From a virus (lineage: Duplodnaviria > Heunggongvirae > Uroviricota > Caudoviricetes): a DNA stretch of 11,218 bases. The notes below the pieces were generated by a model. That model searched no databases, was not told the DNA's origin, and saw only the letters and a list, made by a program, of their open reading frames with translations. Every line of letters starts with the position of its first letter. Position 1 is the first letter of the stretch. Of the stretch, positions 7,816-11,218 are shown in pieces. Made by a program: the position numbers and the translations under genes. The stretch lies in IMG/VR virus record IMGVR_UViG_2667528065_000004. The stretch is one strand, 5' to 3'.

Positions 7816-8090
7816 ATGTCTCGACTAATCACTTTACAGGACTGGGCTAATCACCTTTCCGGACTGGGCTAAAGAAGAATTTGGGGACTTAGCACCAAGT
7901 GAGCGAGTTCTGAAAAAATACGCGCAAGGGAAAATGATGGCCCCACCCGCTAGGGAAAATGATGGCCCCACCCGCTATAAAAGTTGGTCGCTACTGGATG
8001 ATTGACCGAAATTCCCGTTTTGTAGGAACGCTTGCAGAACCGCCAACTCCCAATAAACGCAAACCCAAAACTCCAACGGATAATCGCTGA
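7816..8090 (+). pseudogene. xis: Excisionase (Xis-like) gene disrupted by two duplication-type insertions
   Basis: ATG 7816 with AGGAGG RBS; frame stops after 18 codons. Removing the 22-bp insert (7851-7872, an imperfect copy of 7829-7850) and the perfect 25-bp tandem duplicate (7953-7977 = 7928-7952) restores a continuous ~75-aa Xis-like ORF MSRLITLQDWAKEEFGDLAPSERVLKKYAQGKMMAPPAIKVGRYWMIDRNSRFVGTLAEPPTPNKRKPKTPTDNR whose TGA overlaps the int ATG at 8090. Confidence 0.65.
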
Positions 8091-9232
8091 TGGCTGCTAG
8101 ACCCCGATCTCACAAAATCTCTATACCCAATTTATATTGCAAATTAGATAAGCGAACCGGAAAGGTATATTGGCAATACAAACATCCACTATCCGGTCGT
8201 TTTCATAGCTTAGGAACTGATGAGAATGAAGCAAAACAAGTTGCTACTGAAGCAAATACCATTATTGCTGAACAACGTACCCGACAAATATTAAGCGTCA
8301 ATGAGCGTCTAGAAAGAATGAAAGGCAGGCGTTCAGACATTACGGTGACAGAATGGCTTGATAAATATATTTCTATCCAGGAGGACAGGCTGCAACATAA
8401 TGAACTAAAACCCAACTCCTATCGGCAAAAAGGTAAACCCATTCGTCTTTTCCGTGAGCATTGTGGAATGCAACACCTCAAGGATATTACCGCACTTGAT
8501 ATTGCCGAAATAATTGATGCTGTAAAGGCTGAAGGTCATAACAGGATGGCGCAAGTCGTGAGAATGGTGTTGATCGACGTCTTCAAAGAAGCACAACACG
8601 CAGGACATGTTCCGCCAGGATTTAACCCAGCGCAGGCAACAAAACAACCGCGAAATCGAGTAAACCGCCAAAGATTATCACTGCCCGAATGGCAGGCAAT
8701 ATTTGAAAGCGTAAGCAGACGGCAGCCCTATTTAAAATGCGGCATGCTACTTGCTCTTGTTACTGGACAACGTTTAGGCGATATCTGCAATTTGAAATTC
8801 TCTGATATATGGGACGACATGTTGCACATTACTCAGGAAAAAACCGGTTCAAAACTTGCTATTCCGCTTAGCCTGAAATGCGATGCTCTGAATATTACCC
8901 TTCGTGAAGTTATATCTCAGTGCAGGGATGCTGTTGTTAGTAAATATCTGGTCCATTACCGTCACACTACCTCTCAAGCAAACAGAGGAGACCAGGTTTC
9001 TGCAAATACTCTTACAACGGCTTTTAAAAAGGCCAGGGAAAAATGTGGCATAAAATGGGAGCCAGGAACTGCGCCCACATTTCATGAGCAGCGATCTCTG
9101 TCAGAACGGTTATATCGGGAACAGGGTCTGGATACGCAAAAGTTGTTAGGTCATAAATCCAGAAAAATGACCGACCGATACAATGATGATCGTGGTAAAG
9201 ACTGGATTATCGTAGATATCAAAACAGCATAG
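8090..9232 (+). CDS. int: Tyrosine recombinase / phage integrase (e14 IntE / phage 21 Int type)
   Basis: Intact 380-aa ORF MAARPRSHKISIPNLY...; C-terminal catalytic region with HxxR and Tyr (LGHKSRKMTDRY); adjacent to the attachment site in icd. Confidence 0.9.
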   Translation: MAARPRSHKISIPNLYCKLDKRTGKVYWQYKHPLSGRFHSLGTDENEAKQVATEANTIIAEQRTRQILSVNERLERMKGRRSDITVTEWLDKYISIQEDRLQHNELKPNSYRQKGKPIRLFREHCGMQHLKDITALDIAEIIDAVKAEGHNRMAQVVRMVLIDVFKEAQHAGHVPPGFNPAQATKQPRNRVNRQRLSLPEWQAIFESVSRRQPYLKCGMLLALVTGQRLGDICNLKFSDIWDDMLHITQEKTGSKLAIPLSLKCDALNITLREVISQCRDAVVSKYLVHYRHTTSQANRGDQVSANTLTTAFKKAREKCGIKWEPGTAPTFHEQRSLSERLYREQGLDTQKLLGHKSRKMTDRYNDDRGKDWIIVDIKTA

Positions 9233-9242
9233 AAAATAGCCA

Positions 9243-9279
9243 GTTTTGGGGAAGGGTTTTGGGGAAAGTTTTGGGGAAG
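9243..9279. repeat. Three direct repeats of GTTTTGGGGAA (9243-9254, 9256-9267, 9268-9279) between the int stop and the icd 3' end; candidate integrase arm-type sites
   Basis: Seen directly. Location next to int and the att region is consistent with P'-arm-type binding sites. They could also belong to the same duplication phenomenon seen elsewhere. Confidence 0.45.
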
Positions 9280-9294
9280 ATTTTACATCATCAT

Positions 9295-9324
9295 AAAACA
9301 ACGGGCGTGTTATACGCCCGTTTC
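9295..9324. terminator. Rho-independent terminator, best oriented for icd (minus strand), possibly bidirectional for int
   Basis: Perfect 8-bp stem acgggcgt (9301-9308) / acgcccgt (9314-9321), 5-nt loop. On the minus strand it is followed by UGUUUUAUGA, 25 bp downstream of the icd stop. Confidence 0.65.
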
Positions 9325-9348
9325 AATATTTAACACATGTAGTAGTGA

Positions 9349-10700
9349 TTACATATTCTTGATGATCGCGTCACCAAACTCTGAACATTTCAGCAGCAGT
9401 TTAGCGCCTTCCATCAGACGTTCGAAGTCATAGGTTACGGTCGGCGTTGGCGTTGATTGCGCCTTCCATACCTTTAACAATCAGGTCTGCGGCTTCAGTC
9501 CAGCCCATATGGCGCAGCATCATCTCAGCGGAGAGAATAATAGAGCCTGGGTTTACTTTGTCCTGTCCGGCATATTTCGGCGCAGTACCGTGGGTGGCTT
9601 CAAACAGGGCGCATTCGTCACCGATGTTTGCGCCAGGGGCGATACCGATACCACCAACCTGCGCTGCCAGGGCGTCAGAAATGTAGTCACCGTTCAGGTT
9701 CATACAGGCGATAACATCATATTCAGCCGGACGCAGCAGGATCTGTTGCAGGAATGCATCAGCAATCACGTCTTTAATGACGATCTCTTTGCCGGTATTC
9801 GGGTTTTTAACTTTCAGCCACGGGCCGCCGTCGATCAGTTCACGGGCCGCCGTCGATCAGTTCACCGCCAAATTCTTCACGCGCCAGCTGGTAGCCCCAG
9901 TCTTTAAACGCGCCTTCGGTGAACTTCATGATGTTGTCTTTAAACGCGCCTTCGGTGAACTTCATGATGTTGCCTTTGTGCACCAGGGTGTTGACTTCAT
10001 GATGTTGCCTTTGTGCACCAGGGTCACAGAGTCAACGATCGTTAGCAATTGCGTATTCGATCGCTGCACGAACCAGACGTTTGGTGCCTTCTTCCGAACA
10101 CGGCTTAATACCGATACCGCAATGTTCCGGGAAGCGAATTTTCTTCACGCCCATCTCTTCACGCAGGAATTTAATCACTTTCTCAGCGTCGGCAGAGTCT
10201 GCTTTCCATTCGATACCCGCATAAATGTCTTCCGAGTTTTCACGGAAGATAACCATATCGGTCAGTTCAGGGTGTTTAACCGGGCTTGGAGTGCCCTGAT
10301 AGTAACGTACCGGACGCAGGCAGATGTAGAGATCCAGTTCCTGGCGCAGGGCAACGTTCAGAGAGCGAATACCGCCACCAACCGGAGTGGTCAGCGGGCC
10401 TTTAATGGCAACGCGATATTCACGAATCAGATCAAGGGTTTCAGCAGGCAACCAGACGTCCTGACCATAAACCTGTGTGGATTTTTCACCGGTGTAAATT
10501 TCCATCCAGGAGATTTTACGCTCGCCTTTATAGGCTTTCTCGACTGCAGCGTCGACCACTTTCAGCATGGCTGGGGTTACATCTACACCGATTCCATCAC
10601 CTTCAATGTAAGGGATAATCGGATTTTCAGGAACGTTGAGTTTGCCGTTTTGCAGGGTGATCTTCTTGCCTTGTGCCGGAACAACTACTTTACTTTCCAT
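9349..10700 (-). pseudogene. icd: Isocitrate dehydrogenase gene icd, reading frame broken by multiple insertions
   Basis: N-terminal ORF 10032..10700 is Icd ([26 protein letters not shown]...EYAIANDR*). ORF 9428..9769 is the Icd C-terminal region in another frame. The final segment YDFERL...[11 protein letters not shown] ends at 9349. Span is 1352 bp versus 1251 bp for a 416-aa Icd plus stop. The 101 extra bp are accounted for by a 1-bp insertion (~10034), a ~35-bp duplication (9990-10024), a 36-bp tandem duplication (9937-9972), a 22-bp tandem duplication (9841-9862), a 4-bp insertion (~9449-9456) and a CTG insertion (~9397-9405). Confidence 0.85.
9819..10024. repeat. Three tandem duplications inside icd: 22 bp x2 (9819-9840 / 9841-9862), 36 bp x2 (9901-9936 / 9937-9972), ~35 bp x2 (about 9955-9989 / 9990-10024, imperfect at its 5' edge)
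   Basis: Seen directly: cacgggccgccgtcgatcagtt x2; tctttaaacgcgccttcggtgaacttcatgatgttg x2; ttcatgatgttgcctttgtgcaccagggt repeated after a gttgac spacer. Confidence 0.9.
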
Positions 10701-10871
10701 TCACCTCTCCTTCGAGCGCTACTGGTTTGCTCGTCTGCCACCACGTTGCATATGCGTTTGCGTCCTGCGATACGGATGCTTTAGAGCAATTTTTTGTTAA
10801 TGATTTGTAATTGGCTTGTCAATACTACCCTATTGTTTGCCGTCATGAAAGATGCGCGTTATTAGGCTATA

Positions 10872-11218
10872 ATGCGGCAATTCATAATCTCTGAAAATAC
10901 CATGCAAAAAACTTCTTTTAGAAATCACAAGGTTAAGCGATTCAGCTCGCAACGTTCTACCAGACGAAAACCTGAAAACCAGCCCACGCGTGTGATCCTG
11001 TTCAATAAACCCTACGATGTTCTTCCGCAGTTCACCGATGAAGCCGGACGCAAAACATTGAAGCCGGACGCAAAACATTAAAAGAATTCATCCCGGTTCA
11101 GGGGGTGTATGCGGCAGGTCGTCTCGACCGCGACAGCGAAGGGTTACTGGTGCTGACCAATAACGGCGCTTTGCAGGCGCGTTTAACCCAGCCGGGTAAA
11201 CGTACCGGGAAAATCTAG
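10872..11218 (+). pseudogene. rluE: 23S rRNA pseudouridine synthase RluE gene, 5' part, frameshifted by a 20-bp tandem duplication; continues past the window end
   Basis: Translation [63 protein letters not shown] matches the RluE N-terminus as I recall it. gaagccggacgcaaaacatt is duplicated at 11040-11059 / 11060-11079, producing a premature stop at 11079-11081. The downstream sequence encodes the expected continuation ([44 protein letters not shown]) in the original frame. Confidence 0.8.

What the first reader, a model, noticed from the sequence alone, without database searches (positions are those of the whole stretch)
11040..11079. Perfect 20-bp tandem duplication frameshifts host rluE
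gaagccggacgcaaaacatt occurs twice in tandem. Upstream of it the translation matches the RluE N-terminus and downstream the expected continuation ([44 protein letters not shown]) resumes in the original frame, so the duplication is the only lesion. A third gene hit by the same class of event within 3.4 kb strengthens the view that one mechanism or one artefact process acted on this region.
Basis: partly seen in the sequence, partly recalled or inferred. Interest (0 to 1): 0.45.

Follow-up and report, generated by a model that had tools for sequence, protein, structure and literature searches.

The report
Assembly-error duplication in draft rluE
The 20-base repeat that breaks the rluE gene is really in the deposited sequence, but it is one of about a dozen short repeats packed into the error-prone end of a single draft E. 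coli contig, so it is most likely an assembly mistake and not a mutation.

Summary
TGAAGCCGGACGCAAAACAT occurs twice in perfect tandem at 11039-11078. It shifts the rluE frame by +2 and creates a TAA stop at 11079-11081. Removing one copy gives 108 of 108 residues identical to RefSeq RluE.

The window is the whole of contig AOQI01000107.1 from draft assembly GCA_000397365.1. Against the closest complete genome (E. coli YP3) it shows 12 alignment gaps, every one an insertion that repeats adjacent sequence. They are 1 to 36 nt long, there are no deletions, and only nine substitutions occur. Eleven of the gaps (12 duplication events) fall in four clusters in the last 3.5 kb, hitting xis, icd (7 events) and rluE. 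The twelfth gap is at the garbled contig start.

Several copies are imperfect, with errors only next to the junction. Pieces between junctions are about 45-54 or 92-105 nt long. The contig ends 140 nt downstream with a wrong last base.

None of 5426 complete E. coli genomes carries any of these duplications. The junction sequences tested were absent from the viral, species-representative and metagenome collections.

Best explanation (about 0.85): overlapping sequence pieces were joined end to end without merging their overlaps. Read mapping or PCR would settle it. Interest is low.

The parts
11039..11058 (+). Copy 1 of the 20-nt unit TGAAGCCGGACGCAAAACAT. This is the segment scored as an insertion relative to all reference genomes.
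11059..11078 (+). Copy 2 of the 20-nt unit. It is followed by T at 11079, which is the only exact microhomology (1 nt).
10872..11218 (+). 5' part of rluE (23S rRNA pseudouridine-2457 synthase). It is interrupted by the duplication, with a premature TAA at 11079-11081, and it runs off the contig end. The last base, g instead of t, makes a false TAG.
9349..10700 (-). icd (isocitrate dehydrogenase). It carries seven window-specific insertions that repeat adjacent sequence: 9339-41 (just outside the stop codon), 9391-93, 9443-46, 9819-40, 9936-71, 9990-10024 and 10034.
9819..9862 (.). Perfect 22-nt tandem duplication in icd, with 3 nt of microhomology.
9900..10024 (.). Two overlapping duplications in icd. 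One is a perfect 36-nt duplication (9900-9971). The other is a 31-nt duplication separated by 4 unmatched bases GTTG (9959-9989 and 9994-10024). ACTTCATGATGTT occurs three times.
9339..9455 (.). Three small insertions exactly 52 nt apart: GTA, CAG and GGCG. They lie inside the 215-nt icd 3' segment that also exists as an icd' pseudogene copy at the far end of the prophage in YP3.
7725..7771 (.). 24/23-nt imperfect tandem duplication upstream of xis. The first copy has an extra T near the junction.
7816..8100 (+). Prophage excisionase gene (xis). It is interrupted by a 22-nt imperfect duplication (7825-7868), a perfect 25-nt duplication (7927-7976) and a 1-nt duplication (8043).
1..51 (.). Degraded contig start. 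It has poly-C errors and an imperfect 18-nt repeat of the adjacent sequence, inside the O-like replication gene.
8090..9232 (+). Prophage integrase. It is intact and lies between the duplication clusters. It is included as context, showing that the events are clustered and not spread evenly.

Best explanation
The 20-nt duplication in rluE is not a biological feature. It is a false tandem duplication made when a draft genome was assembled. Where the assembler had only short, poorly overlapping pieces (single reads or tiny contigs), neighbouring pieces that overlapped by 1-36 nt were placed end to end without merging the overlap, so each overlap is written twice. The low-quality bases at the ends of the pieces were carried into the consensus. 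This explains the imperfect copies and the garbled contig ends. What is shown: the pattern of differences from all references, its restriction to this one contig, and the junction-proximal errors. What is inferred: the exact assembler step (scaffold join, gap filling or consensus) and the cause of the local lack of coverage.
For: (1) Source: the window is the complete 11218-nt contig AOQI01000107.1 of draft assembly GCA_000397365.1. (2) Against E. coli YP3 (L001) the alignment has 12 gaps, all insertions in the window, no deletions and 9 substitutions. Every insertion repeats adjacent sequence, with lengths 18, 24, 22, 25, 1, 3, 3, 4, 22, 36+35, 1 and 20 nt. The eleven best complete genomes all span 10970 nt for 11166 query nt. 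The 196-nt difference is exactly the sum of the insertions. (3) Privacy: 0 of 5426 complete E. coli genomes has the rluE duplication (best identity 96.1%, which I read as 498 matches over 518 aligned positions). None has the xis set (record span 72 nt shorter) or the icd set (94 nt shorter). Four junction strings were scanned. The rluE junction is absent from viral, species-representative and metagenome contigs. The icd 36-nt junction is absent from species-representative contigs. The xis 25-nt junction is absent from viral contigs. The icd 22-nt junction gave one metagenome hit, which is an unrelated chance match. Of the two window-specific ORF products looked up, one (Icd fragment 9428-9769) is on this contig only and the other (truncated RluE 10872-11081) is not on record at all. 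(4) Natural variation control: nine contigs from other strains differ from window 10035-11217 by 0-25 substitutions, and their only indel is this 20-nt gap. (5) Clustering: the events sit at 7725-8043, 9339-9446, 9819-10034 and 11039, with clean stretches of 1298, 398 and 1024 nt between them. Pieces between junctions are 98, 105, 92, 52, 49, 95, 54 and 45 nt. Three insertions are spaced exactly 52 nt apart. (6) Imperfect copies carry errors only next to the junction: an extra T at about 7744, ACTTTACA changed to ACCTTTCC at about 7855, GGTC changed to GGCG at 9443, and the GTTG filler at 9990. The contig start has poly-C errors and the last base is wrong. (7) Exact microhomology at the borders is only 0-3 nt, and 1 nt for rluE. 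There is no hairpin potential (z = 0.36). (8) The contig stops inside single-copy rluE 140 nt after the duplication. (9) False duplications caused by read errors, very low depth and incorrect gap filling are a documented class of assembly error (PMC9516828).
Against: No reads could be examined, so the junction has not been shown to lack read support. The assembler and sequencing platform of GCA_000397365.1 could not be identified. The first 7.7 kb of the same contig is clean, so the problem is local, and I can only guess why. One cluster lies in a known 215-nt repeat, but the xis and rluE sites are not known repeats. A perfect 20-nt duplication is also what a real slippage event would look like. 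Other contigs of the assembly could not be inspected for the same signature.
Confidence: 0.85

Rival explanations
1. The rluE duplication is a genuine private mutation of the sequenced clone. It arose by replication slippage or template switching and inactivates rluE, a non-essential rRNA pseudouridine synthase. At least some of the neighbouring events are artefacts or independent mutations.
For: The copy is perfect. rluE is dispensable in E. coli (established knowledge, not tested here). The flanks are identical to a wild-type relative. A single 20-nt duplication is a known kind of spontaneous mutation.
Against: There is only 1 nt of flanking microhomology. It sits 140 nt from a contig end whose last base is wrong. 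It is one of about 12 events of the same kind in 3.5 kb, and several of those carry junction errors. It is not seen in any other genome or collection.
Confidence: 0.08
2. A real, localised burst of short tandem duplications occurred at the prophage-host junction. Possible causes are error-prone repair of a double-strand break, or template switching during in-situ prophage replication that runs into flanking host DNA. This burst destroyed xis, icd and rluE in one lineage.
For: All events are of one class and are confined to xis, attR, icd and rluE next to a lambdoid prophage that encodes Gam, Bet and Exo. Errors restricted to the duplicated patches could in principle reflect error-prone synthesis.
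Against: I know of no bacterial process that yields a dozen insertions of 1-36 nt with no deletions and almost no substitutions. Seven hits in icd would make a natural B2 isolate a glutamate auxotroph (established knowledge). Read-sized spacing, exact 52-nt spacing and degraded contig ends point to data handling. No second example exists in 5426 genomes, about 1600 of which carry this xis region.
Confidence: 0.03
3. The duplications are present in the reads but were created in vitro. Possible sources are chimeric molecules from amplification or library preparation, or a minority or contaminant template sequenced at very low depth. The assembler then reproduced them faithfully.
For: The signs of low depth are the same: errors at piece ends and a short contig ending in a single-copy gene.
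Against: It cannot be told apart from the main explanation with the data available. Amplification chimeras are usually inverted or long-range, not a series of short direct repeats (my own knowledge).
Confidence: 0.04

Closest known systems
[quoted passage not shown] 2022, PMC9516828)
   Same: Adjacent duplicated sequence is found only in one assembly. It is associated with contig ends or joins, erroneous bases and presumed low depth. It disrupts gene models and creates false frameshifts.
   Different: The documented cases are mostly kilobase-scale and in vertebrate assemblies, and they are often separated by an N gap. Here the units are 1-36 nt, directly abutted with no N, in a bacterial draft. 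Read depth, the defining diagnostic, could not be checked.
Spontaneous short tandem duplication by replication slippage between direct repeats
   Same: A perfect head-to-tail copy of a short unit that causes a frameshift.
   Different: Slippage events are typically bounded by several nt of microhomology and occur singly. Here microhomology is 0-3 nt, events are clustered, some copies are imperfect, and deletions, the commoner outcome of slippage, are absent.
Wild-type E. coli icd-rluE-nudJ locus with a lambdoid prophage integrated in the 3' end of icd (e.g. strain YP3, NZ_CP072687.1)
   Same: Gene order and sequence are essentially identical: 9 substitutions over 11 kb, with the same prophage, integrase and attR, and the same RluE protein once one copy is removed.
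   Different: The window has 214 extra nucleotides, all local repeats, and none of them is present in the complete genomes.

Membership tests
rluE gene (23S rRNA pseudouridine-2457 synthase) | Sequence identity to annotated RluE, and position between icd and nudJ | tested here: met
   108/108 residues are identical to WP_001248664.1 after one copy is removed. RefSeq annotation under the match reads rluE next to icd. Orthologues in related contigs carry PF00849.
Assembly false duplication (unmerged overlap or gap-fill error) | Present in one assembly only and absent from independent genomes of the same lineage | tested here: met
   (0 of 5426 complete genomes). (no junction matches). (the one hit is an unrelated chance match). 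(a window-specific ORF is found on this contig only).
Assembly false duplication (unmerged overlap or gap-fill error) | Located at or near contig ends or joins, together with other errors of the same kind and erroneous bases beside the junctions | tested here: met
   The duplication is 140 nt from the contig end. There are 12 similar events, and both contig ends are degraded. Junction-proximal errors occur in at least four of the internal events. Pieces between junctions are 45-105 nt.
Assembly false duplication (unmerged overlap or gap-fill error) | No or very low read support across the duplication junction | not testable with these tools
Replication-slippage tandem duplication (real mutation) | Unit bounded by a short direct repeat (microhomology of several nt) | tested here: not met
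   Exact microhomology is 1 nt for the rluE event and 0-3 nt for the others.
Replication-slippage tandem duplication (real mutation) | Junction supported by reads or PCR from the organism | not testable with these tools
   No reads or DNA are available.
Naturally decaying pseudogene | Substitutions and deletions accumulate together with the disabling lesion, and the lesion is shared by relatives | tested here: not met
   There are 0 substitutions against a Logan contig over 1183 nt. There are no deletions anywhere. No relative shares the lesion.
Quasi-palindrome or hairpin-templated mutation | Duplicated unit lies in or next to an imperfect inverted repeat that could template it | tested here: not met
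   The DNA fold of 11010-11110 is no better than shuffles (z = 0.36). Only the separate 1-nt insertion at 10034 extends a palindrome.

The most novel reading that the evidence does not exclude
The duplications are real. In that case a localised shower of a dozen short (1-36 nt) tandem duplications, with error-prone copying of the duplicated patches, struck the 3.5 kb around the attR junction of a Red-encoding lambdoid prophage and knocked out xis, icd and rluE together. That would be a clustered insertion-only mutational signature not described in bacteria.
Probability: 0.03. Interest if true: 0.65.

Novelty: not a real feature. Interest (0 to 1): 0.05.

Why it matters
The practical lesson is that apparent frameshifts and pseudogenes of xis, icd and rluE in this record should not be read as gene loss. 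Scans for tandem duplications in draft assemblies need a filter for events that are clustered, insertion-only, private to one contig and close to contig ends. If the events were real after all, they would define an unusual clustered duplication signature at a prophage junction. The evidence here gives that little room.

Tried and rejected
(a) Finding the strain or the assembly method. Full-text searches for AOQI00000000, AOQI01, GCA_000397365 and neighbouring WGS prefixes found nothing. My guess that it was one of the Cress/Koffas drafts was wrong, since ATCC 23502 is CAPL00000000.

(b) Looking up the truncated 69-aa RluE product. It is not on record anywhere.

(c) An apparent coincidence. At least 24 contigs of other assemblies end at window position 10035, exactly where the 1-nt insertion lies. 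I first read this as a repeat boundary and then rejected that reading. The look-up selects only contigs whose partial Icd has exactly 222 residues. Their ends vary by 0-2 nt. Partial Icd products of many other lengths exist. The 421-nt icd segment is single-copy in complete genomes. The plasmid hits are chromosome-sized or chromosome-fragment records.

(d) A chimera of the two icd 3' copies as the cause of the 9339-9446 cluster. The window follows the icd copy at 9 sites and the pseudogene copy at 2. This is equally well explained by ordinary allelic variation, so it is inconclusive.

(e) The single metagenome hit to the icd junction 23-mer is an unrelated GC-rich sequence.

(f) A hairpin or quasi-palindrome origin for the rluE unit. 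No structure was found.

(g) A literature search for GapCloser-specific tandem duplication reports gave no directly relevant paper.

Full report
**Observation.** The sequence at 11040-11079 is gaagccggacgcaaaacatt written twice. Tandem Repeats Finder reports 11039-11079, period 20, 2.0 copies, 100% matches. The repeat finder places the copies at 11039-11058 and 11059-11078. By my estimate a perfect 20-nt tandem repeat in 11 kb has a chance expectation of about 1e-8. The ORF from ATG 10872 ends at a TAA at 11079-11081 after ...[14 protein letters not shown]. The expected continuation [14 protein letters not shown]...GKRTGKI is read from 11060, in frame +2 relative to the ATG. With one copy removed, the 108 residues in the window are identical to RefSeq RluE WP_001248664.1. 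The 109th codon is TAG instead of TAT, because the very last base of the window is g instead of t.

**What the window is.** An exact-product look-up identified the window as the complete 11218-nt contig AOQI01000107.1 of the NCBI draft assembly GCA_000397365.1. It holds the early and integration region of a lambdoid prophage: an O-like replication gene, ydaS/ydaT-like genes, a cI-like repressor, kil, gam, bet, exo, xis and int. The prophage is integrated in the 3' end of icd, and the start of rluE follows. The closest complete genomes are E. coli strains such as YP3, UPEC132 and KC-Dl-1, at 98.8% identity when gaps are counted.

**The duplication is one of many.**
- A pairwise alignment to YP3 (L001) has 12 gaps. 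All are insertions in the window, there are no deletions, and there are only nine substitutions.
- The insertions are at 34-51 (18 nt), 7725-48 (24), 7839-60 (22), 7927-51 (25), 8043 (1), 9339-41 (3), 9391-93 (3), 9443-46 (4), 9819-40 (22), 9923-93 (71, which is 36 plus 35), 10034 (1) and 11039-58 (20).
- Each one repeats the adjacent sequence.
- The eleven best complete genomes all span 10970 nt against 11166 query nt. The 196-nt difference is exactly the sum of the insertions after position 52, so all of them are specific to this contig.
- Dedicated searches confirm this for each region. For rluE the best identity is 96.1%, which I read as 498 of 518, in 5426 of 5426 genomes. For xis the best records are 72 nt shorter than the query. 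For icd they are 94 nt shorter.
- Four junction strings were scanned. The rluE junction is absent from IMG/VR, GTDB species representatives and JGI metagenomes. The icd 36-nt junction is absent from species representatives and the xis 25-nt junction from IMG/VR.
- The one metagenome hit, to the icd 22-nt junction, is a chance match in unrelated DNA.
- The window-specific Icd fragment encoded at 9428-9769 exists on this contig only, among about 15 billion proteins.

**Anatomy of the events.**
- They form four clusters: 7725-8043 (upstream of and inside xis), 9339-9446 (the icd 3' end and attR), 9819-10034 (mid-icd) and 11039 (rluE). Clean stretches of 1298, 398 and 1024 nt separate them, and the first 7.7 kb has no events apart from the contig start.
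- If each junction is treated as the border between two abutted pieces, the pieces are 98, 105, 92, 52, 49, 95, 54 and 45 nt long. The three small insertions are exactly 52 nt apart.
- Several copies are imperfect, and the errors sit only next to the junction. There is an extra T in the first copy at about 7744. ACTTTACA becomes ACCTTTCC at the start of the second copy at about 7855. GGTC is repeated as GGCG at 9443. Four unmatched bases, GTTG, lie between the 31-nt copies at 9990.
- The contig start (1-51) shows the same thing in a stronger form, with poly-C errors. The contig's final base is also wrong.
- In mid-icd, three successive pieces tile the reference with overlaps of 36 and 31 nt, so ACTTCATGATGTT appears three times.
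- Exact microhomology at the borders is 0-3 nt, and 1 nt for rluE.
- The rluE region has no more hairpin potential than shuffled sequence.

**Interpretation.** A natural history of gene decay does not fit. Over window 10035-11217, nine contigs from other strains differ by 0-25 substitutions, and their only indel is this 20-nt gap. One of them (Logan SRR27876728) has no substitution at all. A dozen insertions, no deletions and almost no substitutions, seven of them in icd, is not what bacterial mutation or drift produces (general knowledge of mutation spectra, not tested here).

The pattern is what is expected if short sequence pieces with low-quality ends were chained and their short overlaps written twice. 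This is the small-scale equivalent of the false duplications documented for draft assemblies, which are linked to read errors, very low depth and incorrect gap filling (PMC9516828). The maximum unit of 36 nt would fit overlaps shorter than a k-mer of about 37, but that is speculation.

One cluster (9339-9446) lies in the 215-nt icd 3' segment that is present twice in such lysogens. In YP3 the two copies are 94.9% identical. That is a plausible reason for assembly trouble at that site. For xis and rluE no repeat is known. The contig's break inside single-copy rluE, 140 nt past the duplication, is itself a sign of missing or conflicting data.

**Limits.** I could not see reads, other contigs of the assembly, or the assembly method. 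The artefact verdict is therefore an inference from pattern, held at about 0.85. About 0.08 remains for a genuine private slippage mutation in rluE. About 0.04 is for an in-vitro origin upstream of assembly. About 0.03 is for a real clustered duplication process at the prophage junction, which would be remarkable.

**Comparison with known things.** The gene is rluE by sequence and synteny. The lesion resembles a slippage duplication in form but fails the microhomology criterion and the independence criterion. It meets every testable criterion for an assembly false duplication, and the read-depth criterion remains untestable here.

**Verdict.** The feature is most probably not real, and interest is low (0.05).

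Noticed in passing
window 2440-3393 (+): A 317-aa protein with no Pfam hit on record. It lies directly downstream of the cI-like S24 repressor (1623-2378), which is the position held by rexAB in lambda. It matches the PADLOC candidate anti-phage defence family PDC-S42 over its full length (E 3.4e-86) and PHROG 3243 of unknown function.
   Followed up: partly
window 6073-6825 (+): A 250-aa hypothetical protein between exo/DUF1317 and the TraR-like gene. It matches PHROG 887, labelled queuine tRNA-ribosyltransferase, but only over the first half of the profile (positions 11-266 of 509, E 4e-99).
   Followed up: no
window 191-307: Five copies of an approximately 20-nt unit, TTTACCTGATTCGGGTAAAC, itself an inverted repeat, spaced 19-29 nt apart inside the O-like replication gene. 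They look like lambdoid origin iterons. The contig starts just upstream of them.
   Followed up: no
window 9242-9284: AGTTTTGGGGAAG repeated 3.4 times at 12-13-nt spacing, between the int stop codon (9232) and the icd terminator hairpin (9300-9322, minus strand). The alignment to YP3 shows no difference here, so the repeat is also in YP3 and is real. It may be a set of integrase arm-type binding sites of attR.
   Followed up: no
window 10026-10045: The 1-nt insertion at 10034 turns the 8-nt palindrome ACGATCGT of icd into a 10-nt palindrome AACGATCGTT. This is probably coincidence, but it is also the form that a quasi-palindrome correction would take.
   Followed up: no
window 9439 and 9458: Two substitutions relative to YP3 icd carry the bases found in the YP3 icd' pseudogene copy at the other prophage end. 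They could reflect ordinary allelic variation, gene conversion, or mixing of the two copies during assembly.
   Followed up: partly
window 1-51 and 11218: Both contig ends are degraded. The start has poly-C runs and an imperfect 18-nt repeat. The last base is g instead of t and creates a false TAG codon in rluE.
   Followed up: yes
L003-L011 (contigs of other assemblies) against window 10033-10035: Many unrelated draft and Logan contigs end within icd codon 222-223. This is most likely a selection effect of looking up an exact 222-residue product, because partial Icd products of many lengths exist. No repeat boundary was found there.
   Followed up: partly
PLSDB records hit (e.g. NZ_CP141089.1, 4.9 Mb; CP088669.1, 730 kb): Records filed as plasmids carry chromosomal icd and are hundreds of kb to several Mb long. 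They appear to be chromosomes or chromosome fragments mislabelled as plasmids.
   Followed up: no
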